The notes: generated by a model from the letters alone, not told the origin. A stretch of 63,816 bases of DNA, filler included, from Hausera hauseri (GCA_046269625.1; 9 parts of 9 records of this genome joined end to end with filler, not necessarily neighbours in it), one strand, 5' to 3'; shown: positions 16,560-53,607, numbered from the whole stretch's first letter. Numbers and translations are program-made.

Positions 16560-17010
16560 CGACGTATTAAACTTCTCGTAAGCCACATGTACATCAGCAT
16601 TATTTTTAACGCCTGGCAAACAGACGTTGCCCATACGGAGGATTGTCAAAGTCACCTCTGGATAAATTACTTTATAAATTAATGCGGGAAATCTTTTGGG
16701 ATAAAGAAAACCAAATTCGTTATCTGTCTGACGGGAAAGCATGAGATTTACGGTCCCTCCAACATAACAGCATGCCCTTAAACTGTAAGTTCGGTAGTTA
16801 ATAAGTCGAACATCCAAAGTAAATTTTAAAAAAATCCGAGTAACTCGTCGACAACCCGTTCCACACTCCTTTTCAAGGATAATTCTCACTACGATTGCCC
16901 TGCTTTTATAAATGATTGCAGTTGCATAGGGTTCGCGAGGACGAAATACTAAACCATCAAACCGACATGTATTACGTTCGGAATTGTTGGTTAGTGACTG
17001 TGACTGATGT
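16560..17010 (-). pseudogene. Divergent TATA-binding-protein (TBP/TRF)-like remnant
   Basis: NSERNTCRFDGLVFRPREPYATAIIYKS… and YPKRFPALIYKVIYPEVTLTILRMGNVCLPGVKNNADVHVAYEKF match both TBP repeats. Confidence 0.7.
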
Positions 17011-17085
17011 AACAGTAATTATGATAGGTACTGTGAGAGGAACGATATAACTCAATTCATGTTTAGGAAACATAATGTGTCTGAG

Positions 17086-17210
17086 TCACGAAAGTCGTTG
17101 GCAATCACGGCTTGGCAAGATAATTTTGCCCGAGATAAATCCTATAATATAATGTGATTTTCCAGCTTTTATGACACCACAAATTACGATTCGAATTCCA
17201 CCACTATTTA
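17086..17210 (-). pseudogene. Possible dynamin/mitofusin-like GTPase P-loop fragment
   Basis: IRIVICGVIKAGKSHYIIGFISGKIILPS resembles the G1 motif region; too short to be sure. Confidence 0.35.
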
Positions 17211-18029
17211 AATTAGTTAAGAATTCGTTCCACCCTAACAGTAGGTTAAAGACTGTTATTGCACTGCTTAGAAGGTTCTCGGATTTTTCGAAAGATGTGC
17301 TTAAAAGGTTGCAACTATTCAATATGAATTATTGATAGTGGATCGTCAAAATAAAAATGCTTCTCTGATTTTGATACTTCTCCTTTATACCTTTTTCTCT
17401 AAAACTTCTAGTTCCACGAGTGCCCACAAGGGTTGTGTTGTATTTACATATCAGTCGTCACACAATTTTTCTTACATATTTCCACACCTATTTTACATTT
17501 TCAAGCATGTAGATTTCTTACAAACAAACTCAATTCCACACAAATTTAACATGATAAACCTAAAATATGTGTACAATCTCTATATATAACGTCAACATTC
17601 GCTCACTCCATTCTGTACATATACACACATGCCCACACACATACCTTTATATATACACCATATACATCTTCTTTCTTATCTATGCATCATGTCTTCCGGA
17701 TTACCCAACTAGTCAGTCAGGTTCCAACAAGACATATTCTCATTCCATCGCATGCTTAATTACTATCTACTTGTTATTTTTCACAGTATCATAGGACTAA
17801 ACAGCAATATCTACATNNNNNNNNNNNNNNNNNNNNNNNNNNNNNNNNNNNNNNNNNNNNTTAATTAATTAANNNNNNNNNNNNNNNNNNNNNNNNNNNN
17901 NNNNNNNNNNNNNNNNATGTATTTTGGTAGTTGCACTACCAAAATTATTGACATAAACTATCTCGACATCCTCCTACCACCGAATGGGAATTATTCAGAT
18001 CGAGCTTCGATGTTTTGCTTGCTAATTTG

Positions 18030-24155: not shown

Positions 24156-27100
24156 AAAAGAATATGAAAAGAAATTACGACTAATGGAAGTCTATCATGG
24201 ATTAAAAGAACCATAAACCAAAGAAGAATGGGCTTTGGCACCAAATAATACTAATATGGCGCGTAAGAAATCTATTTCGCAAGGAATAACTCAATCAGAA
24301 GAACCAACGACATCTCAAAATGTCGATATAGATGAAGAATCCGAAAAGAACCAACCAGACGAAATAAGAGATGAAATAGAAAGTGAATTTATTGGACCCT
24401 TGATCCTCAAACTGACGAAGAATAGAGGTAGAAGCCCATTGCCTAAGAGAAGATCTAAGAACCGCTCACGGTCTCCTATAATAAAAGATTTATATACTGC
24501 TGTGCTAAGAGATGACTCGCCCTCAGATATTTCTATTACGCCTATAGGGATTCTAGAAGAGTTAGAAACTCCCGAGATGATAAATATTAATGACGAAATA
24601 AATGAAATTTATCCGCTCCTCGCTAGTGAAGAAGAGATGGACGATATTAATGATCCTGATGCGAGAAAATGGAAAGGTCGACGTTCATGAAAGAATGCCG
24701 ATGAATTAAAGAAGATGAGAATTAGGTGTCACAATCCAGAAATACTCCGACACAACTTAGAGAGGCTTAAACAGATCAGTAAACAAACAGACATATCTGG
24801 TAAAGAACAACAATTTGCGCAGAAATTATGTAAGATTTTAAAATTACGTCGTGAAGGAAAACTTGATGAAGCAATCGAATTAAGGCAACATGAAGAGGTG
24901 CCACGAGATACGTTGATGAAATGGAACCATGAATTAGAGCTATGGATTAAAAGTGGCGTTGAATTTTCTGAAGGATGAAGTAAAAACGAGGATAGTATTG
25001 ATGTGAAGGTTACTAAGGCTTAGATGCTACTATCTACCTTAGAAATAAATCCAAAAGTGAAGAGAGTAGTCCGTAATTTAGAACGTATAATAAATGAAAT
25101 TCGCTGTGCAATGATTAATCGTCTTAGCGAAAAACCGGTTAGCAATCGAAGTGATACTGATTTAGAAATATTGGCTGTAGACCCGATAGATATTCCGCCC
25201 TTAATGGAGATGATAAAATTTCTTTTGCTAAGCCTAGACGATATACAAACTTAGAGAATCGTATTAAAGTAGAGAATGAAAAAAGATCACAAATCAACAG
25301 TTTAAGAAATCGAATAATGTCCATGAATAATGAAGAAACCGAATACATAATAAAAGCTTGTATCATAGAATTCGACGAATATAAGGATGAGCTCAATTTT
25401 GTTAGCCAATTTATGAATTTCATAAAAGGCCCAGACGATGAATTGAAAGATGCATATAAGATGCTAGACAAAGCAATATTAGCAAAGCCAATAATTGCCA
25501 ACCAGTTATCAGAATGGTTCGAACTAATAACGAGATTAAGCAAATTACTAGAAGACCGTAAGAAAGAATTTCCGGAAAGTGAACCATTTGTAAGAAAACG
25601 ACTAAAAGAAGGAGCATGTAACTTAGATATGATACAAGCAGAGATAAACATCCGAATGCAATTCGCAGCTTTGCGACGATTAAATTTTATGAAGAAGAAG
25701 CAAGAAATGACAATATTGGAAGAAATCTATAAAATGACCGAAGAAACGAACTTTACCGAAAAACGAAATATGACTTGCAATTTTTACTCAAAGTTAAGAA
25801 GCATCCGATGAGAAGGAATCCAACACTTAACAGAGAAACCTATCGACGAGATTTCAATCCAGGACATCGAAAGCCTAGTTATTTGTCCAGAACATAGAGC
25901 AGACCCTATAAAAGCAGTAAGAATCCTGCATAAACCACGACAATGGATGGCCGGTACAGATCAGAATTGTCACACCGAATTGAAGAAAATAAGAAACAAC
26001 CAACGTCTTAGTGTCGAAGAATCTAAGTTCGTTAAGAAATTGCTGGACGCAATGGATCCCGACTCAAAAATTAGAAATGAAATGTACGCATTAGCCTACC
26101 TGTTGGTAAAAATGGCGGAGATTAATGATGAGAAGATGAGACAATTCATGCCCAAATTACAACAAGTTGAAGAAACATGCATCAGAACGAAACAAAGAGC
26201 AATAAGGCTAGTTGAAATAACAAAGGAGTTTGAAGGTTACCGGAATAAATACGCTTTTACCGAATTAGAGATCAAAAATAAGCAAGAAATCGTACAAAGA
26301 TGGCAAAGGGACGTAATTATGGAGCTAACCGATTATCATTAAAAAGGATTCATCAATCATAATGAATTAGGCGAACTACTAAAAATGATTCAATATGCCT
26401 GTGGAAACGGAACAGGTTTCCGAACTACTCAGATAAAAGAAATACAACCGAGACTGAAAGAAATTCGAGAAAATGTCCAAAGAACGAACACAGCTCTAGT
26501 AGACTATGGACTCCCAGATATTGGGAATGAACCTGAATGGGATGCTTATCTAGAAGAAATAACGGCCGAAAATCCGGTAACTGCAGTACACATAGATGAA
26601 ATAGAAATGTATCCGCAGAACAGGGAATTTAATGTGGAGATGCTCCTAGACTCAGCGTTAGCCGAGAAGGACTTAATGAAATCAATTAATGTGGATATGA
26701 CTGAGATTAAGCTCAGGCAGCTCATTCCAACTTTCACTAAATTATCCAGTGAAAACATAATTTACAACACGTTGCCGAAACTTTTAATAAAGAAGTATGC
26801 GAAAATCTTGAAGGATAAACCTGAGGTAACGATGAAAATAATGGTATCATCCGAATGGATGGAAGAAAAAGAATGTGAGCTAACCACTTATTCTTACGTA
26901 AAGGACGTAAGCGAATGGTTATTAAATAATGGTGGAACAAATGGGCTAAATTACAGATTTTACTTTAGAAAAGGAATACTCGACGATTTAGAATAGTTAA
27001 TATGTGTCGGAATTATCCCTGACAAAACAAATCGCATAGTAGTAAAAATAGCCAATGAACAAACGAAAGAAAAAGCCAGACGGAAGGCGAAAACGGAACA

Positions 27101-30100
27101 GTGCGTAGGACAAATCATGGGAGTACGAGATGCGGCAATGTATTTCGAGTATTTACAGACGGACGAAGACAAGGAACAATACGACAGAAATCTAGTACCG
27201 CTAAGTTGAATGTCAACGAATGCTCCAAAACCGAAACGCCCAGTCGGCAGACCTAGGAAGTCCCGAGAAGAAATTGACTATGACGGAGAACTGATGAGAG
27301 AGTTAAGACAGATGTCGATCCCTTCCTTTAATGCCGATAACGAAGAATTAAGTGAGTTAATGAAGAATTTAATACGTGTTGTAAATTATTCAAGTCTCCG
27401 CGGAGAGACATTAGATGACAAAGAAAAGGTGATATTTAGCGCAGCTAGAACAATGAGGAGTTCGCGCTTCAAACTGTCAAACAGCAGCCTAACTGACGAC
27501 GCAGTAGTTGAGAAAATTATGGTGGAAAATACGACAGAAGAGCTAAGGAAAGTATTATTGTACTTGGCTATCAAGACAAATCCAATTCGAGAAAATGAAC
27601 TGAACCGAGCTACGAGCTTGTCACGAAAAGCAGCTAAGAAGCTTCCATGCGAAGTAAATTGGCAAAAATTGTTTGATACGGAAGAAGATAAAAGAATCAG
27701 CAGTAACAACGGACTCGGAGACATTATACGGAAATTGACGACAACGGATAACAACAACCGAAAGAATGAATCTAACTGGTTAATCAGTTTGCTCACTATA
27801 ATGATGCTAATAAAACAGATGGGTGCTGTCACTGTCTACGATTGCGATAGATTTAAGTTAGGACAAAAATACTATTAATGGACTTAGAAGTGTGTGAAGA
27901 TGCTAGACCACATAAATTGGAAACAAAGGAGAAGAGTTATTTCCTATACCAACAAGAAGAGTTGATATTTTTGGATGGCATGGAGTGTATGCTGAGACGA
28001 TCTCGCAGCATTTTCCACTGTGGACTTATGCACGGATACTCTTCAATAATCAAACCAACAACCCCTCCGATTCCAATGAATTTGGAAAGACAGCATTGCA
28101 AGCAGGCCCGAGAGATCGGAAGATTGAAATGCGATAGTATGGAACTAAAAATACAGCCCGAGAAGATAATTAGAGCATACAAAATAGTAGTTGGAAGGTT
28201 CGATATGCATAACGGGCACTGTATTGGAGCAGAATACAACACCAGAAAAGGACTAGAAGCAAACGTAGTAGTAGTGGACTTTTACGAATCGGAAATGCAA
28301 GTCCAGAAAGTGATGTTCCATAGCGTCACTAAGCTGTATACCGAGAATCAAAAATGCCACATGAAAGACGGTACATGCACTTTCAGAAGTTCTGTCGTCA
28401 TATGGGAACCACCCGCATGAAAAGGCTGTAATTTTATTAATATTAAGGAACTAAAATTTAATGAAACTACCGTAAAACGATACGTAGATAAACCCGACAT
28501 CAGTTCAAGGGCACGAGAAAATGTATCAGAACATCATACACCTACGATACTAATTCCTGATCAACATGGATTAAAATTCATAAAAAGGAAATGATTTCAC
28601 GTTGCGAAGTAGTAATGTTCACCACTAACTACAAAGCGTTCTTTGTCGCAGAAACGGATATAAACGCAAAAACATACAACTTAGAAACGCAAGACATTCG
28701 AATCGGAGATTATCTAAAAAACCGAGACGATTGTTTTTATTATAAAGGACAAGTCGGGATAGCCGAGCTATATCACAAAATGATAACTAATGACTGCAAA
28801 TTAGATATAGAAATTATGAGAACAAAATTATCTCTCATTTATGCGAACCCCGAGTTAGCTTCACCGATCATTCCCATGAGAGAAGGAACTTTCGGCCGAG
28901 TTACTGGCGAGGTCCTACTGACCTACGAGTGCGAGAAAAGAGACGTAGCAATTAATGTCGAAGAAAAACGGTGTATACAAGGGCTTCCTGTGATCTATCA
29001 AAACACTCAGCGCTTAGCCATGCCCCTTACTAGAGTGATGCTATACAACGCAACACAACCTACAATACTGAAGGACTGTAAGGCATGTTTGGGTGAACCA
29101 ATCTTTAGGCGTAGCGAAACAGATTGGGTTAGCTTACCTTATGGAGACGTTACTATCATTCCTAAAAGACTAACTGGAACTATTTTAGCGAAAGGAATTA
29201 CTGATGACAAATTTCAGGACATCTCAAAAGGGTATTTACAGGCCCAGAGAGATTGAAGCTTTTCGACAATTTCTCTCTTCCACGGCAACGTACACACGAA
29301 TTAAACCGAGCTATGGCATTAGTAGTAGATGATATTCACTACCAAGCTAAATGGGAATCCCTGCTTGGTGCTAACCATTACCAACGGGTAACCACAGAAG
29401 TACTCTACAAAATATGGAGAAGATTTTTAATTTTTGGACAAGCTGCATCGGGATTCTTAGCAATTTATTTTTTGCTACAGCTAGTAAAAGCGGTAATTTA
29501 AGCGGTCATAAATGGGTACGAAATGTTTACACTAACAGGATTTTCCTGCAAGATCTTAACCGCAATCATTACCCTTCGGCAAAATGCTTAAAGCCTATGA
29601 AGAAAATCGATGGAAAAATGACGTTGTACGCCATGTCGGCTACCATAATTATAAAAGACGAGCCAGACCCACGTTTCTATCGAAACTAAAAGCGAAGAAA
29701 TTAACAACATTGAGAAATGAGTCCGATGATGACGAGCCTAAGGGAGGAGAAGCAATCCTCAGACAAAACAGACATAAAATGTATTCAGTAATTAAGGCAT
29801 CTTTGCTCATCATGCCGCCAACGGCTCCAATATACGAAGATTGCGACAGAACATCTATGATGTCATATAAATCTGAAACTCATCATAAAAGTTCTAGCTA
29901 TGAGGACCCTGACGAAGGAACAAAAGAATATGGAGTATTAAAGAAAATGCAAATCACTAATCAACGACGAGCGGAAGATGACCACAGGATATTGTACTCA
30001 CCGAAAATAGCTCGTAATATAGAGACAAGATCGGCAGTCTGGGGAACACAAGGAATGAAATCGTTCCAAAACCCAATAATACAAGAACCATTAATTAGAA

Positions 30101-30702
30101 ACAACGCAGGTAGCGTAGCAATCAACGACTTGTACCCTAACAAAGAACTGAAACCGTTGACCCAGAATATCATTTCATCACCCGAAATAACGGTAAATGG
30201 ACATAAGATTTTTTTAATTAAACGACCAAAGGACTTGTCAAGTTGTTATGGAACAGTTATGGAAGGGAGACCATTCACAAAGTTACCATTGAAGATTGGG
30301 AAGTCTATGCCTTAATCGACACCGGATCAGAGAAATCGTTTATCAAGTTAGAATCAATACCGCCGACACTGAAAACAACTACAGCCAGCATCGTCGTCAG
30401 ACCCAGGCAGCATAGGAGTCTTCGGGAAAGAATCCAAACCGAAATTTAAATGGAGTCATTTAGTCCAATTAATGGGCCAAATCCTTCGACACGAGTTCGC
30501 CATAATGGACCAACTAACCGATGATGTACTGTTAGGTTGCGACATACTAAAACAATTACCCAATATCGCAATAAACGTACAGACGGGAAAACTACTTGAA
30601 CTCGGATCAGTGAAAGGAATCAAAACAATGAAAGAAAAAAAGCTAGAAGTATAGATTCCCGTCGATGAAAATATTCCGCCCAGAACCGAAATGCTAATTT
30701 AT
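24156..30702 (+). mobile_element. Envelope-bearing Gypsy-like element family B, copy A (partial, decayed)
   Basis: Helical N-terminal region, Ubl (~26832-27050), AT-hook KPKRPVGRPRK, glycoprotein, PPTAPIY, protease ALIDTGSEKSF; collinear with 30803-36761. Confidence 0.88.
27775..29600 (+). pseudogene. Chuvirus (Jingchuvirales)-like glycoprotein, copy A
   Basis: Hydrophobic signal then VYDC…DLEVCE…C…SRSIFHCG.MHGYSS…GHCIGAEY…NVVVV…LY…C…P…GEV…C…LPV…PLTRV…WRRFLIFGQAASGFLAIY TM; the pattern matches chuvirus G proteins as I recall them. Confidence 0.8.
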
Positions 30703-31047
30703 NNNNNNNNNNNNNNNNNNNNNNNNNNNNNNNNNNNNNNNNNNNNTTAATTAATTAANNNNNNNNNNNNNNNNNNNNNNNNNNNNNNNNNNNNNNNNNN
30801 NNATGCGTGTGGAAACGGAGATGGATTTAGTGTATCAGTAATGAAAATATTACAACCGCAACTGAGAGAATTACGTGAAAGAATCCAGGTCGGACAAGCG
30901 GCATTAATGAACTATGACTTACCTGACGCAGAGAACGAAGCCGAGTGGGATGAATATCTCCAAGGTCTAACCGAGCAAAGTCAAAGAACCCCGATACAAA
31001 TTTATGAGTCGCCTACGGGTGCATAAAAGACGAAATTTGATGTCCAA

Positions 31048-32838
31048 ATGTTGCTGGATCCCACAGTAGCTGAAAGGGAACTGAGCAGTATGTTGAAAAT
31101 AAACATAAACGAAGATAAGTTAAGGAAATTGATTCCAACCTTGATTAAACTATCCAGCGAGAATACCGCATACAGCGCCGCACCCAAGCTCTTAATAAGA
31201 GAGTACGCTAAACTATTGAGAAATAAACCGGAAGCGGAAATTAAAGTGAAAGTATCATCTGAAGGAATGGATGACGAGGAATTTGAATGCACCACTATTA
31301 CCACCGTTGCGGACATTAGACAACGAATAATGTACAAGCATGGTAAGGAAGGAGTTAATTATCGGCTCTATTTCAGGGGTAGGATATTAGATGAATTAGA
31401 ATCCCTAATAGACGTAGAGATCATATCACACGAGGAGAATCGAATAATAGCAATAATTGCTAGTGAGCAAACCAAAGACAAAGCCATAAGGAAAGCACAT
31501 ACAGAACACTGCGTTGCAAAAATCATGGGGATTCAGGACGCCGCAATGTACTTTGAATATTTACAGACGGACGACGATAAACAGCAATACGATAAGAATT
31601 TAGTCCCACTAAGCGAAACTTTACCATTAGCAAAACCGAAAAGACCAATCGGAAGACCAAGAAAAATAAAAGAAGTGGACTATAATGCAGACTTAATTAA
31701 GGAACTAAGACAACTATCGGTACCCACTCCGAGCTCAGATAATGAAGAATTAGTTGAGCTGATGAAGGATTTAATAAGAATAGTTAATTATACCGGACTA
31801 CAAGATGACATACTATCCGAAAAGGAAAGACTAATATATAATATAGCACGGACAATGAAAACGTCGCAATTCAAACTATCTAAAAGTACCCTCCCTGATG
31901 AAACAGTAATTGACAGAATTATGGTAGACAATACGACGGAAGAATTAAGAAATGTTTTGATATATTTAGCTGTAAAATCAAATCCTCTCCGAGAAAATAA
32001 GTTCGACAAGACGATCGGGTTAGCTAGGAAGGCGGCGAGAAGGGTACCTAAAGGAATAAAATGGGTTAAACTATTTGAAAAAGAACGCAATGTGAAGAAG
32101 ACCAATAACTTAGAGGACATAGTGCGAAACATCTCTTCGAGTAAAGGGAAAGAATCGAATTGGTTAATCAATCTACTAACAATGTTAGTGAAGCAGATGG
32201 GAGTGGTCACCATATACGATTGTGACAAATTCAAGGTGAGCCAGAAATACTCTTTGATGGACTTAAAAACATGTGAGGACGCGAGGCCCCACAAGCTCCA
32301 GACAATAGAGAAGAAACATATACTATATCAACAAAGTGAGTTAATTGCAATGGATGCAACAGAATGCATGATACGTATATCCCGCAGCGTATTTCATTGT
32401 GGTAATATGCACGGCCATTTTTCAGTAATCAAACCTACCACACAATTGATAACCATGAACGTGGACGGACAACACTGCTTAGGAGCCCGGTCAACCGGTA
32501 AAATGGTTTGGGACGGCATGGAATTGGAAGCCCAAGAAGGAAAAATAATTAGAGCCTACAAAGTGGCAGTGGGAACATTGAACATGCATACCGGTTATTG
32601 TGTCGGAGGAGAATACGACACAGGAAAGGGAATAGAAGAAGAAATAGTAGTCGTAGATTTTTACGAAACCGAGTTAAGATCCTTAAAAGCGATGTTTCAT
32701 AGTGTTACCAAACTATTCACTGAAAATCAGAAATGTCACATTCATGACGGTGCTTGCACGTTCCGAAGTTCGGTTATTGTATGGAATCCACCCTCAAAGA
32801 AAGACTGCAATTTTATCAAAATCAGAGTTAAAATTTAA
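31048..32838 (+). CDS. Open polyprotein segment: Ubl domain + AT-hook + internal signal peptide + N-terminal glycoprotein ectodomain
   Basis: One uninterrupted 596-aa frame: IKVKVSSEG…TVADIRQRI…YRLYFRGRILDELESLIDVEI; KPKRPIGRPRK; WLINLLTMLVKQMGVVTIYDC…. Confidence 0.85.
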   Translation: MLLDPTVAERELSSMLKININEDKLRKLIPTLIKLSSENTAYSAAPKLLIREYAKLLRNKPEAEIKVKVSSEGMDDEEFECTTITTVADIRQRIMYKHGKEGVNYRLYFRGRILDELESLIDVEIISHEENRIIAIIASEQTKDKAIRKAHTEHCVAKIMGIQDAAMYFEYLQTDDDKQQYDKNLVPLSETLPLAKPKRPIGRPRKIKEVDYNADLIKELRQLSVPTPSSDNEELVELMKDLIRIVNYTGLQDDILSEKERLIYNIARTMKTSQFKLSKSTLPDETVIDRIMVDNTTEELRNVLIYLAVKSNPLRENKFDKTIGLARKAARRVPKGIKWVKLFEKERNVKKTNNLEDIVRNISSSKGKESNWLINLLTMLVKQMGVVTIYDCDKFKVSQKYSLMDLKTCEDARPHKLQTIEKKHILYQQSELIAMDATECMIRISRSVFHCGNMHGHFSVIKPTTQLITMNVDGQHCLGARSTGKMVWDGMELEAQEGKIIRAYKVAVGTLNMHTGYCVGGEYDTGKGIEEEIVVVDFYETELRSLKAMFHSVTKLFTENQKCHIHDGACTFRSSVIVWNPPSKKDCNFIKIRVKI

Positions 32839-33960
32839 TGAGACTACCGGAAAGCGTTATTCGAGCAGTTTACAGGCTCACACTAGATCAAGGAAAGATG
32901 TAATAGAACAGTCCACACTAACCATATTAATATCAGATGTACACGGGTTAAAATTTATTAGGAAGGATATGTTATCACGCTGCGATGTAGTTATGTATGC
33001 CACCAACTACGAAGCATTTTTGCAACATAAACAGAAATCGATATGAAAACGTATGACTTAAAACACAAGATGTGCGGATCGAAGATTACCTCAAAAACCG
33101 AGATGACTATTTCTATTACAAAGGGCAGACCGGAATAGCGGAGCTATATCATAAAATGATAACAAATGACTGCAGACTAGATACTGAAGTCATGAGAACC
33201 AAACTGGCTTTAATTTACGCCAATCCAGAATTGGCATCACCAATTATTCCAATGAAAGACGGTGTTTTTGGGCCAGTCACTGGAGAGGTTCTATTAACTT
33301 ACGAATGCGAAAAGAGAGACGTATTAATTAACGTAAAAGAGAAAAGATGCATGCAAGAGTTATTGGTCATCTATGAGAATATGCCAAGTCTGGCGATGCC
33401 GCTCACCAGAGTATTATTGGCAAACTCCACCGAACCAACAATATTGAAGGAATGCAAAACAACCTGAGGCGAACCAATGTTTAGACGTAGTGGAAACGAC
33501 TGGATAAGTTTACCAAATGGAGGTACAGCCGCATCCCCTAGTAAGCTAACGGGGACAAATCTAATCAAAGGATTATCGGAAGATAAATTTGAAGATACAG
33601 CTAATAAAGGAATTTATAGGCCAAAAGACATAGAAGCTTTAGGCAATTTTTAGCATTTCTGCGACAGCGGACTTACGAACTAACTCGGGTCATGTCAATG
33701 GTCATGGACGACACCCGCTTTCAGGCAAAATGGGAATCGTTATTGGGCGCTAATCACTATCAAAGAGTAAGTTCAGAGATATTGTATAAAATTTGGGGAA
33801 GGTTTTTAATTTTCGGACAAACCGCATCTGGATTCTTAGCCATCTACTTCTTAGTCAGGTTAATTAAAGCAGTGATCCAAGCTATTATAAACGGATATGA
33901 AATATTCACATTGAAAGGATTCGCTTGCAAAATCTTGACCGCAATCATCACACCCTTTGA
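32161..33960 (+). pseudogene. Chuvirus-like glycoprotein, copy B
   Basis: Same conserved Cys pattern as copy A, KGIY motif, TM WGRFLIFGQTASGFLAIYFLVRLIK. Confidence 0.8.
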
Positions 33961-34649
33961 AAAAATGCTTAAGGTTTACGAAGAAAATCGCTGGGAAAAT
34001 GATGTAGAACGCCACATCGGATGCTATAACCGCAAACGACGAGGAAGGCCCTCCATTTTGTATAGACATAAAAATACGACAATAGTAACACGAAAGAATG
34101 ATTCAGATGATGACGAGCCTAATGGAGGAGAAGTGAGTTCCAGAAAGAGGATGCACAAGATGTACTCAGTGATTAATGCGCCATTGTCCATCATGCCGCC
34201 AACAGCACCAATATATGAAGACTGCGACCGCAAATTAATCGTATCATGTGGGTCCGAAATCTATCAAAAATCCATTAATTACGAAGATCCTTATGAAAAA
34301 AACAAAACAATACGGAGTACTATGGAAAATGAATGTTATCCACCAAGGACCAACCGAAAACGACCACGGAATATTGTACTCGAAAAGGATACCGCGTCAC
34401 ACAGAATCGAAATCAACAATCTGGGAGAACTCGAAACTGTGTTCGATCTCAAGTTCACTACCCCAGGAACTGCTCATTGATAGTCGCGTTACCGATATAA
34501 CAAAAAAACGACTTGTATCCGAACGGTGAATTACGACAATTAAGGCAAGATATTATTTCATCGCCAGAAATAACGATAAATGGACATAGAATCTCTACTA
34601 TACAACAGTCAAAGGTAGCGTCAAATTGCTACGGAACAGTAGTAGAAGG

Positions 34650-36761
34650 CAGACCTTTCGCTAAAATACACATCGAAGATTAGGAAGTGTATGCATTAAT
34701 AGACACAGGATCAGAAAAATCATTTGTAAAATACGAATCTATACCAACCACATTACGAGACTAACTATGTCCACCCACATCGTCGGACCCAGGTAATGTA
34801 CGAGCATTTGTATCGAAGCCAAAATTTAAATGGACTCCTACCGTCTATATGATGGGCCAGGCACTTCAACATGAATTTGCGATAATGGACCAGTTAACAG
34901 ACGATGTACTACTAAGTTAAGATATATTAAAACAGATACCAGGTATGACAATCGATGTGCACAATAGAAAATTAATTGAGTTCGAACCGATAACAGGGAT
35001 AAAAGTAATAAAAGAAAGGAAATCGGGCGAAGTATGGATTCCAGTAGATGAAGACATTTCGCCCAGAACCGAAATGATAATTTTTGCGCAGATCCGTCAA
35101 GGCGAAGATCTGCCGGTATATTTTGAGCCTCAAGAGAATATCAATTCAAACCTTATGTTTAGCAATATTTTATGTAAAGTAGTAACGGGACGAATACTTA
35201 TTAGATTAGTGAACAATGCGCAAATTCCTGTATTATTGCACGCTAACACTAATCTAGGTAACACTTGTAGAGTATCGGCAATAACAATAGAAGAAAAACT
35301 GTACAAGTGTGCTGAATTTCCACCTTACGTCGAAACCAAATTCTCTCTGGAAGCGTATTGCAAGTTCTACAAATTATTATGTAAATACAGTTCGATAATT
35401 GCACAAAATGAAGAAGACATAGGCAGAGCAAAGGCTATAAGATTAACAATTCCATTGAGGAAGAAACCCAACTCAAATGACGAAATCGACCTAGAATAAC
35501 AGAAAATGCCCAAATAATATCCACCTCCCCATTTATTGAGACCAGAAATAACTAAAGAAGTAGAACAAATGTTAAAGGCCGACATAATTCGACCAAGCTA
35601 CCTAGCATGGTACTCACCTATACTTATAGTTAAAAAGAAAGGAACTACAAAGCATCGATTTTGTATAGATTATCGGGCATTAAATACGCTGATGACAAAA
35701 GATTCGTTCCAACTACCATCAGTAAAAGAAGCATTAGATAGACTATCAGGAGCAAAATGGTTTACCACTCTCGACTTACAATCGGAATACTGGCAAGTGG
35801 AAATCGAAAAAGATCGATATAAGACGGCGTTCAAAACGCACGATGGCGTGTACGAATTTAATGTTATGCCTTTTGGCATCACCACAGGACCTGCTATTTT
35901 TACTAGGATGATGAATAAGATGCTTATGGGACTTGACCATCATTCGCGTACTTAGATGACATAATGATAGCATCAAAAACAGAAGAAGAACACTTAAAGG
36001 ACATCGAAGATACGTTCATGCGACTAGAACAAGCAGGATTGAAACTAAACCCAAAGAAATGTAAATGGGCGCAGAACGCAGTATTATACCTGGGACATAT
36101 AGTTGAAGAAGGAGGGTAAAAACCAGATAAGTCCCTGCTCAATAAAATATCTGATTGCATGGAACCACAGAATCAAAAAGAGTTAAGACATTGGCTAGGC
36201 CTATGTGGGTATTATGCCACTTATGTACCAAATAACTCGAAGATTAACGCACCACTATACCGCCTACTCAAGAAAGAAACTAAATTGAGATGTATAGACG
36301 TTGAGCAAAAAGCATTCGATGAAATGAAAAAAATCCTAACAAGTGAACCGGGCCTAAGATACCCTGATTTTAACTTACCATTCATCATTAAAACAGATGC
36401 AAGTAAAGAGGGCATAGGATATGAATTATCTCAAAAACGGAAAGATGAAAAACTGAAACATCCTATAGCCTATGGAGGACGCTCGTTGAAGAAAGCAGAA
36501 AAGAATTATTCAGTTACCGAACTAGAAACGTTAGTTGTTAAGGAAGCACTTCGACATTTTAAGGTCTATGTCTATGGACAGAAGATTATAATAGTAACCA
36601 ACCATGAAGCAGTTACGACTTTTAAAGGACGAGCTAATAACCCTAAATGTAGATTGAATAGCTGGATTGAATAAATTTCTTGACATAATATTAAATTCCG
36701 ATATAAACCAGGCAATAAGTATGTTGAAGCTGATGCATTGTCCAGACTGAAAACGAAAACA
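34650..36761 (+). pseudogene. pol: pol: protease, dUTPase-like spacer, RT, RNase H (Gypsy type)
   Basis: YALIDTGSEKSF; ILIRLVNNAQIPVLL; WYSPILIVKKK…FTTLDLQSEYWQV…KTAF…YLDD; RNase H. Confidence 0.92.
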
Positions 36762-37479
36762 NNNNNNNNNNNNNNNNNNNNNNNNNNNNNNNNNNNNNNN
36801 NNNNNTTAATTAATTAANNNNNNNNNNNNNNNNNNNNNNNNNNNNNNNNNNNNNNNNNNNNATCACTTGTTCTCCTGACAGTGTTTTGCGTGGTAACATA
36901 AAGCAGCAAGCTGCTTGCGAACGTGCTGGATCGACTTCTGATGAAGTCCTTTGGATGAAACGTCTCAACAAATTCATTCAACCTTTATTAATCCCATTGA
37001 AAACCAAATAAAGAAAACGTCCTGAGGACCTGACTTAACATTTGTTGGATTTTTTTTTATCTGGATTACTGAGCATGAACTTTGATGTAATTTGAACTCT
37101 TTGAAGGTCAGAGAAAAGAAAAAAAAAGTGTCATTTTAGAATAAATTAATTATTTGACGACTCCAACTTATTTTGTTTTTGCACCCTCTGTTGTTGAAAC
37201 TAGAGAAACCCCTGAGCTGAATTAAATGAACACACACCAACAGAAGGATTGCCTCATTCAGTCAACAGAGTACTGGACTTCTGTTGCAGTTTATTTAACA
37301 ATATTGTATACAAGTAAGAAATGAATCTTTTACCAGTTTATACAGTGATTTCATTCTCTCTTCCTTATATTTATAGTATTTTTGCTTAATAGCTTGATTT
37401 ACAATAGGAGAAAAAGGAAACCCCCCCCCAAATTCAAGTGTTTGTGAGAAGGTTGATGACAATTAAGCTTTCCTTACGG

Positions 37480-40400
37480 TGAATCTCAAATGTTGCCCTT
37501 TGACCCCCTTTTTCCGCTTCTTTACTTGGCCACATACGTCTAGGACATATATTTTAGATCTTAACGCTATAAATCACGATATTATTGCCAAATTCACCTC
37601 TTCTTTGAATTTCCCAAGGACATTTTGTTGGCAATTAAATAGTTGGGATGATCCTTCCGATAGTCCGAGGTATCCATGTGTTAAACCAACTGGGAAAAGT
37701 CCTCATAAATGTCCTCTGTATGGATCTGATAGATGAAACTATAAGTATTCAAATACATCAGCTGCATGGACTTGAACTCGGGAACCATGATTTCGTAGTG
37801 GAAATGATACAACAGGGTTTTTGACAGGTCGAGTTTTGCCATACCCACATATATGGGCTTGTTGAATACCAAGGATGTTTTCAGCATATGGATGCTGACC
37901 AAGTTCTCAGCATATATGATGCTGCTGTAGAAGTTAGGCTTGGCAATAAGCTTCTTTGCTCGCTTCCAGTCACATAGCAGTTCGATATTGATCCTGTTGC
38001 GGATATTCTCCATGGTCTTGCCAAAGACCGAGTTGTTGTAAAGCTTGAATTGGTCCTTCTCAAAGTCATTCTTGGCATTTGTCCGCAGCTTCGTATTGAG
38101 ATCTATGTAGGGCTGCAGCCACATGGACTCACTGAACTTGGGGGCTTTACGGATCTTGGTAATACGAAGTCCATGTCTAAGTGCCTGCTGGAGATTGATG
38201 TAGTGAAATACATACCTGTCCCTATTACCCAAATGACAGACAGCTTTCTATGCTTTCCATGGGGCGCAGGCCTGCTCTCAGGGAGGAAACGCAGCTGTTG
38301 ATGCCTTGAGTGGATGGAAGCAGGATATTTCATATCCATCTCCAGTATGTATCCCGTATCTCCAGCGGAATCCAAGTCCAATATAGGGATGGTTTCAGGA
38401 TTCTCGATCCATTTGAAGCTATCATACGGCATGGGGCGCTCATTGCATATCCATAGAAGTTGTTGGCATCCAGGTATGATATATATGAGGATTCCTTGCA
38501 TGAGTCATACTGGGCCATATATACTTGTTGTTGGCGTCACTATACCGATGAAAGACCTGGCATATTCCGCCTCTAATGCCTCTCTCGATCATAAGAATCA
38601 TATCATAATTCTTAATGATCTGCAGCATAATACCAGTATAGCGCAGCATAGGTGCCAAACTCATCCCTGTAGAAGTAAAGAAATGAGCCTGATCCAATGC
38701 ATGGCTCTTCAATGTAGCATCCTTGAAACTCTCAAAGACATCTGTCAGCAGCAGCATGTCCGTCTTGAGGTATTTGTCGCTGTATTCCTCTATTGTTCGG
38801 CATTGGAATGCATGTTAGACGTTCTGGGCATGTTTGTAGTCTGCATCACTGATATCGCAATCAGAGAGGATATGTAAAAGTCCTTGTCCGGCAATGAGAT
38901 CTCATCCTGTGTTTCCCATCAGGTTATGTAGTCATAGTGAAACACTCCTTTCCTTTTAACCAAGTCAAAGGTATTTTGGAAGAATCGCTTCGTTTCCTTG
39001 AGTTCTTCTGCAAGGAAGTTCTTCCCTAAACTATCCAGTGAAGACGAAATGAAGCGAAAACTGTCTATAAATTGAAGCCTGATTTTGCCTATATACTTGG
39101 TAAAAGTGATGTACTTCTCACTATTAGGGATCACCTCAATGTTTCCTTTAATGTTGCCTAATTCTTGGACTGTGAAATGGGAATCATAGCCACTGAGAAT
39201 ATGGAACACTATAGGCACATATCTGTATGTTTTGCAGCGAAGATTGCAGTTATTGCATGATGCCCCTTGATATGCACCTGTAAAATGGCAGTGATCCTTG
39301 ACTTTATGATTCTCCTTGGTGAAGGACTTGTCGCAGAAGTAACATGTTGTTGCTTGTGCCATTCTTTTGCTTATTTCCACGAAATGCTCATATTATCCTT
39401 TTGCTGTTAAAGCAGGTTTTCAAGCTTATGAGCCATATCTTCAAGTCGTTTCATGAAATGAACTGCTGCACCTTGACCTCTAAATAGATATGGTTCACTG
39501 TCCAGTCCTTTGGCATACATTCAATACGATGAGACTTCATGATATTGGTATGTCATTGTGATGCTATGTTGAGGACTGGAAGTGCAGCTGTGAACTAAAC
39601 GCAGGATCGCTTCAAAGTCGCAATAGATAACTATTGGGACATTTAGCTTCTCAAAATCCTTGAATTCAATATAGTCCTCCTTGAGAAATTCTGGCCTTAC
39701 ACAGTAATTGTTGTTGCAGTACATCTTATGCTCTGCAAGCTTGTCCACTTCTGCATCACCACTGAAATGAGACAGGCATCGCTTACATATTTCTATTTGT
39801 CCATGATGTTTCGTAATTTGGGATCTGACTAGACGTTCAAAGTTCTCGATCCAAACATAATGTTTCTTTTCCTCACAAGATCCCTATTGTCTTCCAATTC
39901 AATATCGCATATCTGCAGGGGATGGAATTTGTCCTCCTCGTCCAATCTAATGATATTGATTGATATATTGTTGAGTCGTCCGAATTCTTTGACTTCATCT
40001 ATGGATGATGGGAACTTAATACATTGGAAGTCATAGTTGTGCTGAACATTCTTATATAGCCAAACTCGTGCAGCATTATGTTGATCCCATACCAGGTTTG
40101 ATAGAATGGCATACATGAAACACTTGTTGTCATCATTAAGGACATTGATGCATACCTTTTTCCCTACGATCCATTCCGGAAGCTGAATATAAGAACTTCC
40201 CCGCATTGGAGAGTACTTGTGAACATACATAAGCAATCTCTTGATGGTTGAAGGAGTCCATCCGCACTTCTTATCCTGGCTTTCCTTAGCCTCGTGATCA
40301 GCTTCTCGTGCGCCTCTTGTATCCATTCTGCTATATTGGTGTTTTCCAATATGGATCTATTTTTTGTCTTGAAGGCCTTATTGGATTCTTCGCCATCAGT

Positions 40401-40548
40401 ATTGATGCACGTGGCCTCCACTTTTATATTCACCTTCAGAGCTTTGAGCTCCGCTATGTTGTCCTGGAGAATCCCCTCTGTCTCGTCGTTATTGGAGCGT
40501 TATTTGGCCAGTTGCATCAATAACATATCTGCGGCATTTTCTCTTTAA
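37480..40548 (-). pseudogene. Protein-primed family B DNA polymerase of Polinton/Maverick/adintovirus type, decayed
   Basis: DNKCFMYAI; IVIYCDFEA; KVKDHCHFTG…CNNCNL; FHILSGYDSHF; FIDSFRF; RKGVF; ERGIRGG; YLDANNFYGYAMS; KLYNNSVFGKTMEN; LGKFKEE…ALRSKIY…KGVK. Confidence 0.92.
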
Positions 40549-43094
40549 TGCTGCCTCATCATCTGGCCGTTGTATTTGACTTTTTGTTGGAGTTAGTGTA
40601 TTTGATGTGGCCGTGCTTGATGCTGCTGCTCATGATGTGGCTGCGTCTGATGCGGCTGCGCGTTTCAATTTTCTAAGATGTTTCGCAGCTACTGCACCAG
40701 ATCCGGCAGCATAATGCAAAAAATAATACTGCGAAGCAGATGCACCAATATTATGTTGCTCATTATAGATGGCCTTCTTTGATTTTGATACTAAGTGACT
40801 CAAATGATGTTTGTAATCATAATAAAGCTGTATCTAATTTGCACCCCATACAGTCTCGCATCCCGGACATATATAATATTGGATACTTTTGGAATTGTAT
40901 CCATAATACCGCTTCATCGTTTTATGGCACTGTTGCGAATTATGTGCTTTGGGTGTGCAATAAGCATAGGAATCGCACATCTGATTTGCTTTTGGGACAC
41001 TTGTTGTCACTAGCATATTATTGTTGAATATTGCTTTCTTCGATTTTGTGAACGACTCCCGATGCTGTTTATTCTGGTTGTAAAATTTCTGGTAACCGAT
41101 CCGGCACACTACCTCATATCCAGGACATACATAGTATTGAGTCCTATTATGTTGGTATCCAAAATAATGCTGCATTACACTATGATATTTCTGCTCCTCG
41201 TGTTTCTGCGCCATGCAAAATTTGTAGAAGTTCCAAATCTAAACAAACCAATTATTTGAGGAACACAAATAACAAAACTCACCATTCTTGGAAGTGAATT
41301 TGGAAATAATGAAATATGTAGCAATGTTAACGTGCACTGCCTCGTTTGTGGATTTTTCGAACATTCTAGAACACTTTGTTTTAATGCATCATTTACATGA
41401 ACTTGTTTACATGATGCACTTGACTTACCAATGTCATGCATATATGTACCAAAATTTGTTTTAATGCATCAAATACATAAATTCCTCCGTGCCAAATTTA
41501 AAATTTCATCAAGATTTTCATATATGAGAAATATATTGTGCTAATCAGGTTTTGTGCTCAGTTTTTTTTTCAGTAAATTGTTTAGAAATCCTTTATTATC
41601 GAAATTTGAGTACAACGTTTTATTTTTTTTGTCTGGAATGCAATTCATAGGAATTCGTCCATTTCAATTTAACTAACGAGCGGCCAAGAATGACGCGGTT
41701 TAATTCGAATAACTGTTGAGTCAACTCTTGGCGGTGGAGGGAAACTTTTCTGTCGATGCTCATTAATGCCCAAACATTCAAATGAAGTTGAGCATTAACG
41801 GACAGTCTGCTGTAGTGTTTGCCTCAGGGTTTGGTTATTAGTCAATCGGCAAATGCTTTCTTAATCATGACAACTGCGGCATGAGAACATTTACTCATGG
41901 ATATGAGTTTCTTGATAAGCGGCGACGAAATTTGATACAGCACATTCGTCACGAGTAAATCGAATTTCGGCCAATTTTGCATTTTGATGACATCTTGAGT
42001 AAGGTGCAACGTACGCCGGTGCTCTCTAAATTTCTAATAAAATATTCTCAGGATTCTAAAATTATACGTACGATTCTAGGACTCGTTTCTTTTCAATTCG
42101 GCAATTATCCGATTATCAATTTCATATGCCTTTACTTCTCGTGCTTTTCCATCAATTTCACTGTTAAATTTCCTGTACCTGGGCCGATTTCCATTACGAC
42201 ATCGATTCCTTAATTCCAGCTTTCTCAATCATTGTTTTTACAACTTGTTCATATTTTCAAAATGTGCTAACCTTTGTCTTTCGCAAACTTTATCCCGTGT
42301 CATGGATCTTTAGCNNNNNNNNNNNNNNNNNNNNNNNNNNNNNNNNNNNNNNNNNNNNTTAATTAATTAANNNNNNNNNNNNNNNNNNNNNNNNNNNNNN
42401 NNNNNNNNNNNNNNCATGGATAGGCGGTGGAGGTTTTCATAGACAGAGGCCGGGTTGGACGGCATTTGTTTCGTGATCAACAGCTTCAAGATAATTTACA
42501 ATGTATGCGTAAGATTCGGTCGAAAATATCAATTTGCTATTCAACCGGGATTTTTCAAACTTTTCAATCACTTTACATCGGACGTTGATGTTCGCACATA
42601 CTTGTTTCTCTAATGATGTTAGCTATACATTTGTCTTAATTCAAGGACACCAAATTGAATCTTTTTATTAGACTGTAATTGGAATGATATGTACAAACAA
42701 AGTCAGTCAAACAATTCATTCTAAACTAAATGTTGTGTCAATTTGAATTTTGTAATATTGTAATTGTATATGGTAAAAAATTTTTGTTTGTTAAAAACTA
42801 GCGATAACTAAAGAAAAAAAATTTAGAATTTTTTGAAAGTAATTCAATAAAAAATTTCGTTGTTCTATATAACGTTTTATTTCAATATTTAATGCGAACG
42901 GATAAAGGAAGGGACATATTCTTTTTGACGATGTATTTCCAACCCCTCGATTTATCAAAATACAAAAACACTGTTGGTGCAGAGAAATCCAAAGTGTAAT
43001 ATTTCTATGCACCAACAAAACCGGCTTATGAGTTTGGGGCATTATAAGCTATTTACGTTAAAAGGAACCTACAAAAATTGGACACATTCAGGAC

Positions 43095-45817: not shown

Positions 45818-47623
45818 TCGAAAATTTTACAAGTACTTCAACAAATGTATTAAGTACATCTACTCTTTCTCCTTCCTCAAAATTCTCTACTTCAAGCTCA
45901 ATAACTCCATCGTCAATATCAGTAAGTACTAAAACAAAAGTACATCAACACCAGTACCAGTACCTACAGTCAAATCAAGAACAATGTAAGACTACTCGAA
46001 AGTCACACCTACACTTTGATTGAGCTGTGCTATGAGGCGAACGGATACGGGTAATGATAATTCTGTATCCCATTTAGAAGAAATTTCTTTTGTTGAGTCC
46101 ATCAACACGTCTTCATTTAAAAGTAGCTTAAATTTCAGACTACACAACAAATCATATATAGACTTTAATTGCTTTTTGTAACTTTAGGTCCCATTACAAA
46201 GCTTTACACGATTCTTGTAATACTGATATCAGCTGTCCTCTCGAATCTGGTATTGGAAGCTCTATTAGCTCAATCGATGTCAATTGTGGGATTAATTGTA
46301 CCGCATTGGGCTCCAATAGTAATGTCGATTCCGATTTATCATCTCCAAGCAATCAGTCCGGTCATTGTTTCCGACATGATTGTCATGATTTTCCGCCAGT
46401 AACTGAACAAGATATTCGACCTGTTCTTATTAGCAATTTTACATAGCCCAAATGTATTTGAAAATATTAGAGATGAATAATGATGAGAATTCCAAATCTG
46501 AGAAAAAGTCTTGAACATTACCAGTTCATTGTTAATTACTGTAACGTGCATGAAATGGCTGCCAAACTAATGACCTGGACTTGTAAAAAGACATGGTGAT
46601 GTTGCTGCCATGTAAAATAGACAAGATCCGATGAGAAAGCAAAAACGGGAAACAGTTGTAAATTCAAGAAACTCCTCCCGGACCCCATGTAAGTATATCG
46701 GTTTTGGGATGATGCTTATGAAGAGAAACGAATACAAGGTGAAGCAGACATTTACCGATTTTGGATTAATTATGGATTGACTTTATTGGAGTCCACTTTT
46801 GAGCGACTTTTGCCGGAAGTAGTGTGGAAATGTGCTTTCGGTTCCACCCTCCTCCCTCCCCCTCTCCCAGGGGGTCGATAAATCGATTTTTCACATGTGC
46901 CAATCGATAGTGCACACTGTGTACATCGATTGGTGCAAGTGCAAGTGTGCAGCACATGTGCAAGTGTGCAAAAATCAATAATATTAGATTTCCAATATTT
47001 CAAAAAGTGCTGATTATCACTCGTGACCGGGTGAAATGGGTAGAGCACACGATGGACTGTGTGAATGTGCAGTTAGAATTTAAATCGATTGATTGGTTTT
47101 CAAATGATTCCAATTGGTGTAGAACCGCCACGGGACCGGGTGCAATCGGAAGCAAACATGACGTATTATACAAATGTGCAGTTAGAATTTAAATTTATTG
47201 ATTATTTATTGATTAATATCGATCGAAAGTGCAAATTGGCTATATTTTCTCCATGTTTTTAAGCATCAAGGAAGCAAAAATCGACCCAACATTGAGCGGC
47301 GCCAGAGAGAAAATCGAGTACGCCAAACTCGAATTTTGAGTCGGAAATTCGAAATTCGAAGATTTTCGAGTTCGAAAATCGATGTTCGAACTATTCGAAA
47401 ATTCTAACGGTAGGAATCGATTCGATATATATGAAAACCTCCATGTGCATAAAAATTAGTTCATGAAAATATACTATATAGATACAAAATCAATATTNNN
47501 NNNNNNNNNNNNNNNNNNNNNNNNNNNNNNNNNNNNNNNNNTTAATTAATTAANNNNNNNNNNNNNNNNNNNNNNNNNNNNNNNNNNNNNNNNNNNNGGG
47601 TGGATCCTCGCAGGATTTCGTTA

Positions 47624-47641
47624 TGGCGTCCTTGGGGTCCT
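47624..47641 (+). promoter_or_regulatory. Putative primer-binding site (best fit tRNA-Asn)
   Basis: TGGCGTCCTTGGG matches 12 of the first 13 nt of TGGCGTCCCTGGG, then diverges. Confidence 0.45.
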
Positions 47642-47875
47642 AGGAAGGACCTACCCTAAAGAGAGAGAGAGAGAGAGAGGGTTGGACCCTGAACAGGTCT
47701 GACTTGAAGATAAAAGCAGCAGCTGAGAGCTGACTGCTCAGTGAGCTGGCAGGAGCCCCAGCTCACAACCTTCGCAGGAACCACTCCAGCATTTTTATTT
47801 TTTGATTTTTCACTGGTACGCCAGTGTGTTCCAGCATTTTTATTTTTTCACAGGTTACTTCTTCAAAGAGCAAAA

Positions 47876-49248
47876 ATGGCAGAAACTGCAGATCCTGCAG
47901 ATGAGAAAGGCCCTGAGAAGGCTCTGCAGTGGGAGAAAGGCCCTGAGAAGGCTCTGCAGTGGGGAGAAACCCCTGAGAAGGCTCTGCAGTGGGGAGAAAC
48001 CCCTGAGAAGTCTCTGCAGTGGGGGGAAACATCTGTTACAGCTGCACCCCATGTGTGGTGTTGCTATACGGAAGAGGCCCTGCAACATGGAGAAAAGAGA
48101 CTGAGAGACTCTTCATGTTGCATCACATCGAGGCAGACGAAAAGTTTGCCTTAGCAGAAGTACAGGACCTCGTAGAGAAAGGAGACGAGGTCATCTACTG
48201 CCCAAAGCTTGTAGATGGAGAACGACTGGCCGTGGTGAAACATCCGACAGAAATAAAGAAAAAAGAACAGAAAAGAGACTGGCTCAACTGGTGGGTGTCT
48301 TTGATGAACGACTGGAAAACTGGTGAAGTGGCGTCACTGGTCAGCCCGTCAGGTAAATATGACCCCTTAGTGAAGCTTGTGGCCATGGAACAAGGGATCA
48401 GCTTCATCATGCATGACCCCTCAGTAAAGGCAGTGAACAAATATGATGAATTAAAGGAGCCTCTTCTGGCTCTAAATGTCTGGAAGCAACATCGGGTCTA
48501 CAGCCAGAAGCCTGAGGTTCAGGAGAGTGTGCTCGAGGAACCAGGCACACAAAACAGAGCAACGAGCGAAGAAGGCGAGCAGGATGAGAAACAGCTGGTC
48601 GATGACCAAGCTGAACTCTTCGATGAACAAAATGAAGCAACATCTCTTAATGATAAAACCTCGAGGAAGCAGCACCACATCAACCAGCCCCGCGAGGACT
48701 GGCACACCAACGTAAGCCCCCTTCCAGCAGAGGCCAGCAATTTTCCCATGCTGAATGGGATAATGGTGTGTGAGGCTTATGGGGAACCATGGAGCATCTC
48801 GAGTGAGGGACTGCTGGTGGTCACTGACGGCAGCTACAGGGTCCACAGGATCAAGTTCAGGAAGGCCCTGAAAGAACAGGCCGGATCAGAATGCCTGTTC
48901 GAGGTAAATGATTTAAGGAAAAAAGGAACAGCTCAAAAACCGAAGACTCAGACTGAAGCAGCCTTGAAGGGTCCAGCACCTCAACAACCCAGGCACAACC
49001 AGCGAGAGGGCCAATACAGGAGCAATGGGCCCCCACGGCAACACCAGCCTAACAACCAGGGGCAAAGGTATCAGCGGCCACCACAACACCCGCCAAAACC
49101 GCCCAGGAGAAATCCTACAGCAGGTCCTGGTGCTGGGGCCAAGAAGCCTGGATATCTACCCCGGGAAGAGTACAACAAATTGACTCCTGAGCAGAAAGAT
49201 GCCCTCCGTCAGGCCAGGGAACAAGTGGCCGGGAGGGCTCCGAAGTAA
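47876..49248 (+). pseudogene. gag: gag-like ORF with one frameshift (~48100)
   Basis: ATG 47876; frame changes to ORF 48019-49248; C-terminus rich in Q/P/R/G, no zinc knuckle; lies directly before pol. Confidence 0.7.
47911..48030 (+). repeat. 4 x 30-bp tandem repeat encoding PEKALQW(G/E)(E/K)(T/G)
   Basis: CCCTGAGAAGGCTCTGCAGTGGGGAGAAAC units at 47911, 47941, 47971 and 48001. Confidence 0.97.
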
Positions 49249-52460: not shown

Positions 52461-52476
52461 AGAACCAGAGGTGAAC

Positions 52477-53559: not shown

Positions 53560-53607
53560 AAAACCGAGGAGAGGGAGAAGAAGAGTCATCGGTTTTGTAC
53601 ACGGTAA

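What the first reader, a model, noticed from the sequence alone, without database searches (positions are those of the whole stretch)
30803..36761. Retroelement with a chuvirus-like glycoprotein upstream of, and apparently fused to, Pol
Seen: order is Ubl - AT-hook - internal signal peptide - glycoprotein - TM - tail - protease - RT - RH. Ubl to ectodomain is one open frame (31048-32838). The tail-to-protease junction is in frame in copy B (CYGTVVEGRPFAKIHIED*EVYALIDTG), and the tail is open in copy A (29584-30315). Lesions fall at different places in the two copies, so the ancestor looks like a single polyprotein. Established: env genes normally lie 3' of pol as separate ORFs; chuvirus G capture is known for mosquito BEL/Pao elements. 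Inference: an independent capture by a Gypsy-type element in which Pol is membrane-tethered through the envelope tail.
Basis: partly seen in the sequence, partly recalled or inferred. Interest (0 to 1): 0.87.

Follow-up and report, generated by a model that had tools for sequence, protein, structure and literature searches.

The report
Jumping gene with envelope before polymerase
This is a broken copy of a virus-like jumping gene whose membrane-fusion protein sits in front of its copying enzymes, likely made with them as one long protein that would hang the enzymes on the envelope's inner tail; the gene order is already published, but some extra modules may be new.

The parts
30803..36761 (+). 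Copy B: decayed internal fragment of a G-before-Pol Ty3/gypsy element; one record, both ends cut
31027..31233 (+). Helical domain conserved in front of the Ubl in relatives; function unknown
   Evidence: Profile of helical+Ubl from 8 relatives hits B at E 3e-21 and A at E 2e-12; model
31234..31473 (+). Ubiquitin/SUMO-like fold
31639..31665 (+). AT-hook-like GRP motif (label recalled)
   Evidence: In both copies, in 5 of 19 relatives and in L001
31720..32100 (+). Helical region at the place where 5 relatives have a Bcl-2-like segment; homology not shown for this copy
   Evidence: inconclusive
32158..32202 (+). Predicted internal signal segment
   Evidence: Hydropathy 1.35 in B and 1.82 in A; a hydrophobic stretch lies at the same place in relatives
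32203..33814 (+). Class III (chuvirus-like, gB-type) ectodomain; broken near 32825, 33020-33060, 33465 and 33640
   Evidence: PF24664; best fold hit a chu-like virus G, E 8e-15; herpesvirus gB, E 2e-4; 14 of 14 conserved cysteine columns present
33815..33877 (+). Predicted transmembrane anchor; a weaker hydrophobic stretch follows at 33917-33958
   Evidence: Hydropathy 2.11 and 1.48
33878..34647 (+). Predicted cytoplasmic tail with PTAP (34199-34210) and a LYP-x3-L motif (34513-34533); frame slips near 34296 and 34502
34648..34990 (+). Aspartic protease, DTG motif near 34702; stops at 34681, 34762 and 34918
35518..36110 (+). Ty3/gypsy-type reverse transcriptase; frame slip near 35940 just before YLDD
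36390..36746 (+). RNase H with two stops; the record ends 15 nt later
24156..30702 (+). Copy A: sister subfamily on a separate record, collinear from 26708 to 30700; about 2.4 kb of extra upstream coding sequence with no detectable capsid or CCHC

Best explanation
The record is a decayed copy of a multi-copy Ty3/gypsy retroelement in which a chuvirus-like class III envelope gene lies upstream of protease-RT-RNase H, and whose active form likely made them as one polyprotein that would leave Pol hanging on the envelope's inner tail. Shown: the domain order, the folds, the scattered breaks, codon constraint across every junction, and intact single-ORF relatives. Inferred working: the N-terminal part (Gag in relatives, then helical-Ubl-AT-hook) stays in the cytosol; the internal signal sends the ectodomain into the ER and is cut by signal peptidase; the anchor stops transfer; tail, protease, RT, RNase H and probably integrase return to the cytosol; the protease frees the enzymes at or after budding. 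Pol would thus reach the budding site on Env rather than only through Gag-Pol, and the PTAP and YP motifs of the tail would recruit the ESCRT budding machinery (motif function recalled from retroviruses). The G was captured long ago by an ancestor of the whole clade. This copy is dead.
For: - A is open where B is broken and the reverse; pN 0.07-0.36 against pS 0.63-0.93 in all 11 in-frame blocks, including three tail blocks and the tail-to-protease block.
- Family contigs cover 30 of 30 bins in two runs; the stop at 34681 is absent from 36,712 of 36,758 depth in X1; one contig spans the tail up to the protease motif.
- G precedes the RT motif in one ORF in 41 of 97 stored proteins, which are 9 distinct representatives plus cluster members, and in L002 (2,693 aa). 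Two clusters have 20 and 21 members, and all 15 listed of each are 3,744-4,029 aa.
- G tree.
- A hydrophobic-YP motif lies 19-78 residues before the protease in 13 of 15 relatives (6.9 against 0.45 per 1,000 residues elsewhere), in both copies, and at the end of 4 of 4 distinct chuvirus-type Gs, so Pol is appended to a whole viral G tail.
- 7 of the 10 relatives have a second signal-ectodomain-anchor unit after integrase, which fits Pol on the cytosolic side.
Against: - No intact copy of this family was seen; the relatives are only about 40% identical in RT-RH, and B is an unresolved long branch in the RT tree.
- The one-ORF rule has exceptions: L001 has an in-frame TGA just before its signal segment; P0003, P0014, P0047 and P0051 start without Gag; P0052 and P0054 look like two halves on one 27,725-nt contig (inferred from equal contig length).
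- The second hydrophobic stretch reaches 1.01-1.57 in 14 relatives and 1.48 in B, so a second membrane pass is not excluded.
- PTAP/PSAP is in only 1 of 15 relatives.
- The length differences at 34296 and 34502 appear in only about half of the X1 depth, and X1 may be the source sample.
- No Gag was found in A's upstream 2.4 kb (best E 0.04).
Confidence: 0.78

Rival explanations
1. The gene order is the same, but in this family the parts are separated by programmed recoding (readthrough or frameshift) or by splicing, so most Pol is not made fused to G and the tether is minor.
For: L001 has an in-frame TGA before the signal segment. Several relatives lack Gag on the same ORF. A strict single ORF would give Gag, Env and Pol in equal amounts, which is unusual for retroelements (established knowledge).
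Against: No break is shared by A and B between Ubl and protease. B's junction stop is not shared by most family contigs. Ten distinct relatives are continuous from G to integrase.
Confidence: 0.14
2. G crosses the membrane twice at its C-terminus, so the fused Pol would face the lumen and functional Pol must come by another route.
For: A conserved second hydrophobic, Cys-containing stretch follows the anchor (1.48 in B, up to 1.57 in relatives). PMC13524379 notes gB-type ectodomains flanked by two TM segments, without saying where the second lies.
Against: The stretch is weaker than the first in 13 of 14 relatives, and a similar stretch follows the anchor of the free viral Gs. The YP motif and the second signal after integrase fit a cytosolic tail.
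Confidence: 0.05
3. A chuvirus G fragment inserted into an ordinary Gypsy copy (nested EVE), or the record is an assembly chimera.
For: Chuvirus G EVEs often lie next to fragmentary Gypsy elements in insects (PMC10084718). The contigs are short and come from a repeat family.
Against: Two independent records share the same joints. G is under codon constraint with its flanks. It is only 18-21% identical to chuvirus-type Gs and 24-31% to G-before-Pol relatives. The Ubl module is shared with those relatives.
Confidence: 0.03

Closest known systems
GAG-ENV-POL Ty3/gypsy errantiviruses with HSV/gB-type Env (Chary & Hayashi, PMC13524379; Nematoda, Bryozoa, Platyhelminthes)
   Same: Ty3/gypsy Pol, class III gB-type Env placed before Pol, multi-copy families.
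   Different: The main text has 0 hits for 'polyprotein', 'fused', 'ubiquitin' and 'late domain'; figures were not visible. The accessory module and the second membrane protein of relatives are not mentioned in what I read. Placement among their clades was not tested.
Nematode endogenous retroviruses (Sacco et al. 2022, doi 10.1099/jgv.0.001739)
   Same: Env and Pol in flipped order (as cited in PMC13524379); RNA-virus glycoprotein captured by a metavirus (title); continuous gag-env-pro-pol ORF (recalled; the paper is not held).
   Different: I recall a nyamivirus-like G there; the best fold hits here are chu-like virus Gs (ranks 1-6), with a nyavirus G at rank 16. The host here is unknown.
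Anakin (mosquito BEL/Pao with chuvirus G; PMC7642597)
   Same: Chuvirus-like glycoprotein carried by an LTR retroelement.
   Different: BEL/Pao Pol, whereas this RT is Ty3-type. Env lies 3' of pol in Roo, Tas and Cer-7.
Jingchuvirales/Monjiviricetes glycoproteins (e.g. Wenzhou crab virus 2 G, P0032)
   Same: PF24664, 14 shared cysteine columns, terminal YP motif.
   Different: Free gene with an N-terminal signal and a stop after the tail; 18-21% identity; separate clade.

Membership tests
Ty3/gypsy (Metaviridae) | Pol order PR-RT-RH with a Ty3-type RT | tested here: met
   Pfam order; best PDB match Ty3 RT, E 4e-28, ahead of the next enzymatic polyprotein (7e-20) and HIV RT (2e-9)
Ty3/gypsy (Metaviridae) | Integrase after RNase H | not testable with these tools
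   The record ends at RNase H; integrase is present in all 10 distinct intact relatives
Ty3/gypsy (Metaviridae) | Gag capsid and nucleocapsid upstream | tested here: inconclusive
   No capsid or CCHC in A's upstream part (best E 0.04); it may lie beyond the contig. Gag traces in P0008, P0022, P0048, P0049, P0050 and L002
Ty3/gypsy (Metaviridae) | LTRs, primer-binding site, target-site duplication | not testable with these tools
   Both records are internal fragments; no genome is held; L002 shows no LTR pair
GAG-ENV-POL gB-type errantiviruses / NERV-like | env upstream of pol | tested here: met
GAG-ENV-POL gB-type errantiviruses / NERV-like | Class III (gB-type) ectodomain between signal and anchor | tested here: met
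   only the N-terminal third of the ectodomain was folded, no trimer
GAG-ENV-POL gB-type errantiviruses / NERV-like | Continuous env-pro-pol ORF (feature recalled from Sacco 2022) | tested here: met
   Indirect for this family (complementary breaks); direct in relatives
GAG-ENV-POL gB-type errantiviruses / NERV-like | Pol falls in one of the published clades | not tested
Anakin (BEL/Pao) | BEL/Pao-type Pol | tested here: not met
   Ty3-type RT and RT_RNaseH; the Pao markers (Peptidase_A17, DUF1758, DUF1759) seen in record 11077-17816 were not hit here
Chuvirus endogenous viral element | G nested among chuvirus Gs, free-standing or with N/L genes | tested here: not met
   G tree separates 18 retroelement Gs from 5 chuvirus-type Gs at 100/100 (small reference set); no N or L hit

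The most novel reading that the evidence does not exclude
These elements form an undescribed lineage of enveloped metaviruses built like an alphavirus or flavivirus polyprotein: Gag and accessory domains (Ubl, AT-hook, in some a Bcl-2-like domain anchored by the Env signal), then a class III fusogen, then Pol packaged on the fusogen's tail, which also supplies the budding late domains, then a second type I membrane protein acting as receptor binder, all from one ORF.
Probability: 0.3. Interest if true: 0.75.

Novelty: new variant of a known kind. Interest (0 to 1): 0.5.

Why it matters
Retroviruses package Pol through Gag and keep env apart at the 3' end. A clade that threads Gag, a class III fusogen, Pol and often a second membrane protein through the ER as one chain is a different design for an enveloped reverse-transcribing particle. 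It makes testable how Pol is packaged and how the ratio of Gag to Pol is set. The gene order is published, so the gain lies in the anatomy (kept viral tail, late-domain-like motifs, accessory module, second glycoprotein), not in the discovery of env before pol. Such Gs can also be mistaken for chuviruses in metagenomes, and one relative is annotated as a bacterial protein.

Tried and rejected
- Own genome: not held.
- Word-indexed search for longer homologues of the 603-aa ORF: none among 7,996 candidates; the HMMER search found them.
- Viral contigs: 0 of 34 and 0 of 100 pattern matches confirmed. GTDB: 0 of 42. JGI metagenomes: 2 of at least 593.
- No RNA holder was listed; this says nothing about expression. 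X2 holds a small share (0.05).
- Single-sequence fold of the N-terminal part failed (pLDDT 36.7). ESM Atlas was blank twice.
- Bcl-2-like domain in copies A and B: profile score below zero in B; hhalign score 17.7, exceeded by 2 of 60 shuffles; no Pfam hit; that region of the model has pLDDT about 40-59 and was barely tested by the fold searches. Not claimed.
- Vertebrate host, suggested by the foamy-like record in the same window: not supported. CpG o/e is 1.13 and 1.06 in A and B against 0.44 in that record, and the records may come from different organisms.
- RT tree (20 rows): does not resolve B; the G label is unknown for P0053-P0057, so monophyly was not tested.
- The 'tail' block was out of frame and was dropped; it was redone. 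P0017 was not parsed.
- Troyka and Pliego virus were considered and rejected: Troyka has no envelope; Pliego is hepadnavirus-like (listing).
- Literature searches: (swamped by 'nerv'). Searches returned 0 papers; 'gag-env-pol' returned only the eLife paper.
- Earlier findings of the scan: nothing.

Full report
Context. The window is nine separate records joined by 100-nt N spacers. The finding is the whole of record 30803-36761 (B). No genome is held, so host, LTRs and flanks are unknown.

Is it one frame? Both copies are dead. B has stops at 31024, 33465, 34681, 34762, 34918, 35497, 35515, 36117, 36672 and 36681, and frame slips near 32825, 33020-33060, 33640, 34296, 34502 and 35940. A is broken elsewhere, for example near 27870, 28580, 29220, 29275, 29570 and 30287. 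Between Ubl and protease I found no break shared by both; the closest pair, at the end of the ectodomain, lies a few codons apart. In 11 in-frame blocks, non-synonymous differences (pN 0.07-0.36) are far below synonymous ones (pS 0.63-0.93), the tail included (one out-of-frame block dropped). Laid on B, runs X1 and X2 give 16,886 and 1,464 contigs over 30 of 30 bins, most under 95% alike, which is what a multi-copy family gives. The stop at 34681 is not shared by 36,712 of 36,758 depth in X1. Length differences at 34296 and 34502 show in about half of the depth. One contig runs from the tail to the protease motif (only part of each table is shown, and X1 may be the source sample).

Intact relatives. 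HMMER over 1.84 billion proteins gave 46 hits. Of 19 scanned, 4 carry G, protease, RT, RNase H and integrase in one ORF, and 4 more carry G then protease. A second search added five more full ORFs of 3,036-4,029 aa among 8 hits, and a metagenome contig, L002, has a 2,693-aa ORF from Gag to beyond integrase. That is 10 distinct continuous ORFs; two clusters hold 20 and 21 members. A helical+Ubl profile built from 8 relatives hits B at E 3e-21 and A at E 2e-12, so the accessory module is also inherited. Against a strict rule: L001 has an in-frame TGA just before the signal, four relatives start without Gag, and P0052/P0054 look like one split element.

Origin of G. In a 23-row tree the 18 retroelement Gs are separated from five chuvirus-type Gs at 100/100, and A and B nest inside them at 97/96. 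Fourteen cysteine columns are invariant in all 23. B is 24-31% identical to the relatives and 18-21% to the chuvirus-type Gs (the reference set is small and only one member is a named virus). This fits an old capture by a shared ancestor, not a new one. The RT tree leaves B unresolved.

How it likely works (inferred). Signal, ectodomain and one anchor put the tail and Pol in the cytosol. The second hydrophobic stretch is weaker (1.01-1.57) but not excluded as a membrane pass. A hydrophobic-YP motif that ends free chuvirus-type Gs (4 of 4 distinct) is kept 19-78 residues before the protease in 13 of 15 relatives and in both copies, about 15 times the background rate; both copies also have PTAP, which only 1 of 15 relatives has. 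Pol was thus appended to a complete viral tail, and these motifs resemble ALIX- and TSG101-binding late domains (recalled). Seven of the 10 relatives continue after integrase into another signal, ectodomain and anchor; P0014 is probable, P0051 lacks it and P0022 is cut short. This alternation fits Pol lying between two lumenal domains. Whether B's family has this last unit cannot be seen. Five relatives have a Bcl-2-like segment just before the signal (Pfam E 0.001 in P0002 and 0.02 in L001, both below the cut-off); for A and B the test was inconclusive.

What is known. Chary & Hayashi (PMC13524379: abstract, section 5 part 1, sections 6, 14 and 22, passages, and search hits in supplementary file 1; passages of the preprint) report GAG-ENV-POL Ty3/gypsy elements with gB-type Env in nematodes, bryozoans and flatworms, 114 arthropod gypsy elements with Anakin-like G, and none in vertebrates. 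Their figures and alignments, which I could not see, may show the fusion or the accessory domains. Sacco et al. 2022 is not held; I saw its title and citation and recall a continuous gag-env-pro-pol ORF. Dezordi 2020 (PMC7642597, passages) describes Anakin; Dezordi 2023 (PMC10084718, passages) found no clear Gypsy capture. Kojima 2025 (PMC12440569, parts 1-3 of 5 and passages) rules out Troyka. Searches combining the accessory features found nothing; the library lacks most subscription papers.

Verdict. The feature is real and the single-polyprotein inference is well supported (0.78). It works like the published GAG-ENV-POL errantiviruses, and no defining feature failed, although clade placement, Gag, integrase and LTRs are untested. 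The accessory module, tail motifs and second membrane protein make it a new variant of a known kind. Interest 0.5.

Noticed in passing
window 47598-59483: Foamy-virus-like endogenous retrovirus: gag, pol with one in-frame stop (best PDB match foamy-type Pol, E 2e-83), an extra 367-aa ORF between pol and an 807-aa env-like ORF, then two more ORFs including a multi-hydrophobic one. CpG-depleted (0.44), so probably from a vertebrate.
   Followed up: partly
P0003, P0008, P0047-P0050, P0053, P0054; L002:7700-8521: Second signal-ectodomain-anchor unit after integrase in the same ORF; no Pfam family; homologous among P0048, P0049, P0050 and P0054, and separately between P0003 and P0047.
   Followed up: partly
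L001:2560-3057; P0001, P0002, P0007, P0023: Bcl-2-like segment ending in a GGW motif directly before the Env signal, which could serve as its tail anchor; sub-threshold Pfam hits and a weak match to a Bcl-x homologue (E 0.66).
   Followed up: partly
L001:3058-3060: In-frame TGA between the Gag/accessory ORF and the Env signal; mutation or readthrough site.
   Followed up: no
P0003, P0005, P0047-P0051, P0054: Two to four protease-like domains per polyprotein, C2H2 zinc fingers in three and ankyrin repeats in P0054.
   Followed up: no
P0008 (HBK71150.1): A 2,627-aa G-before-Pol polyprotein annotated as a Flavobacteriaceae MAG protein; most likely eukaryotic contamination of the bin.
   Followed up: no
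window 11077-17816, minus strand: BEL/Pao element with a divergent TBP-like ORF (16341-17018) upstream of gag.
   Followed up: partly
window 7021-7518 and 60510-61616: Myb-domain ORF and Ufd2P-like ORF lying upstream of gag-like ORFs of Gypsy-type elements; possible captured host genes.
   Followed up: no
window 36862-42314, minus strand: Fragmented family B DNA polymerase with an endonuclease VII domain, Polinton/adintovirus-like (label recalled).
   Followed up: no
window 24156-26600: About 800 codons of charged, helical coding sequence with an RS-rich stretch upstream of copy A's Ubl; no family hit and no clear Gag.
   Followed up: partly
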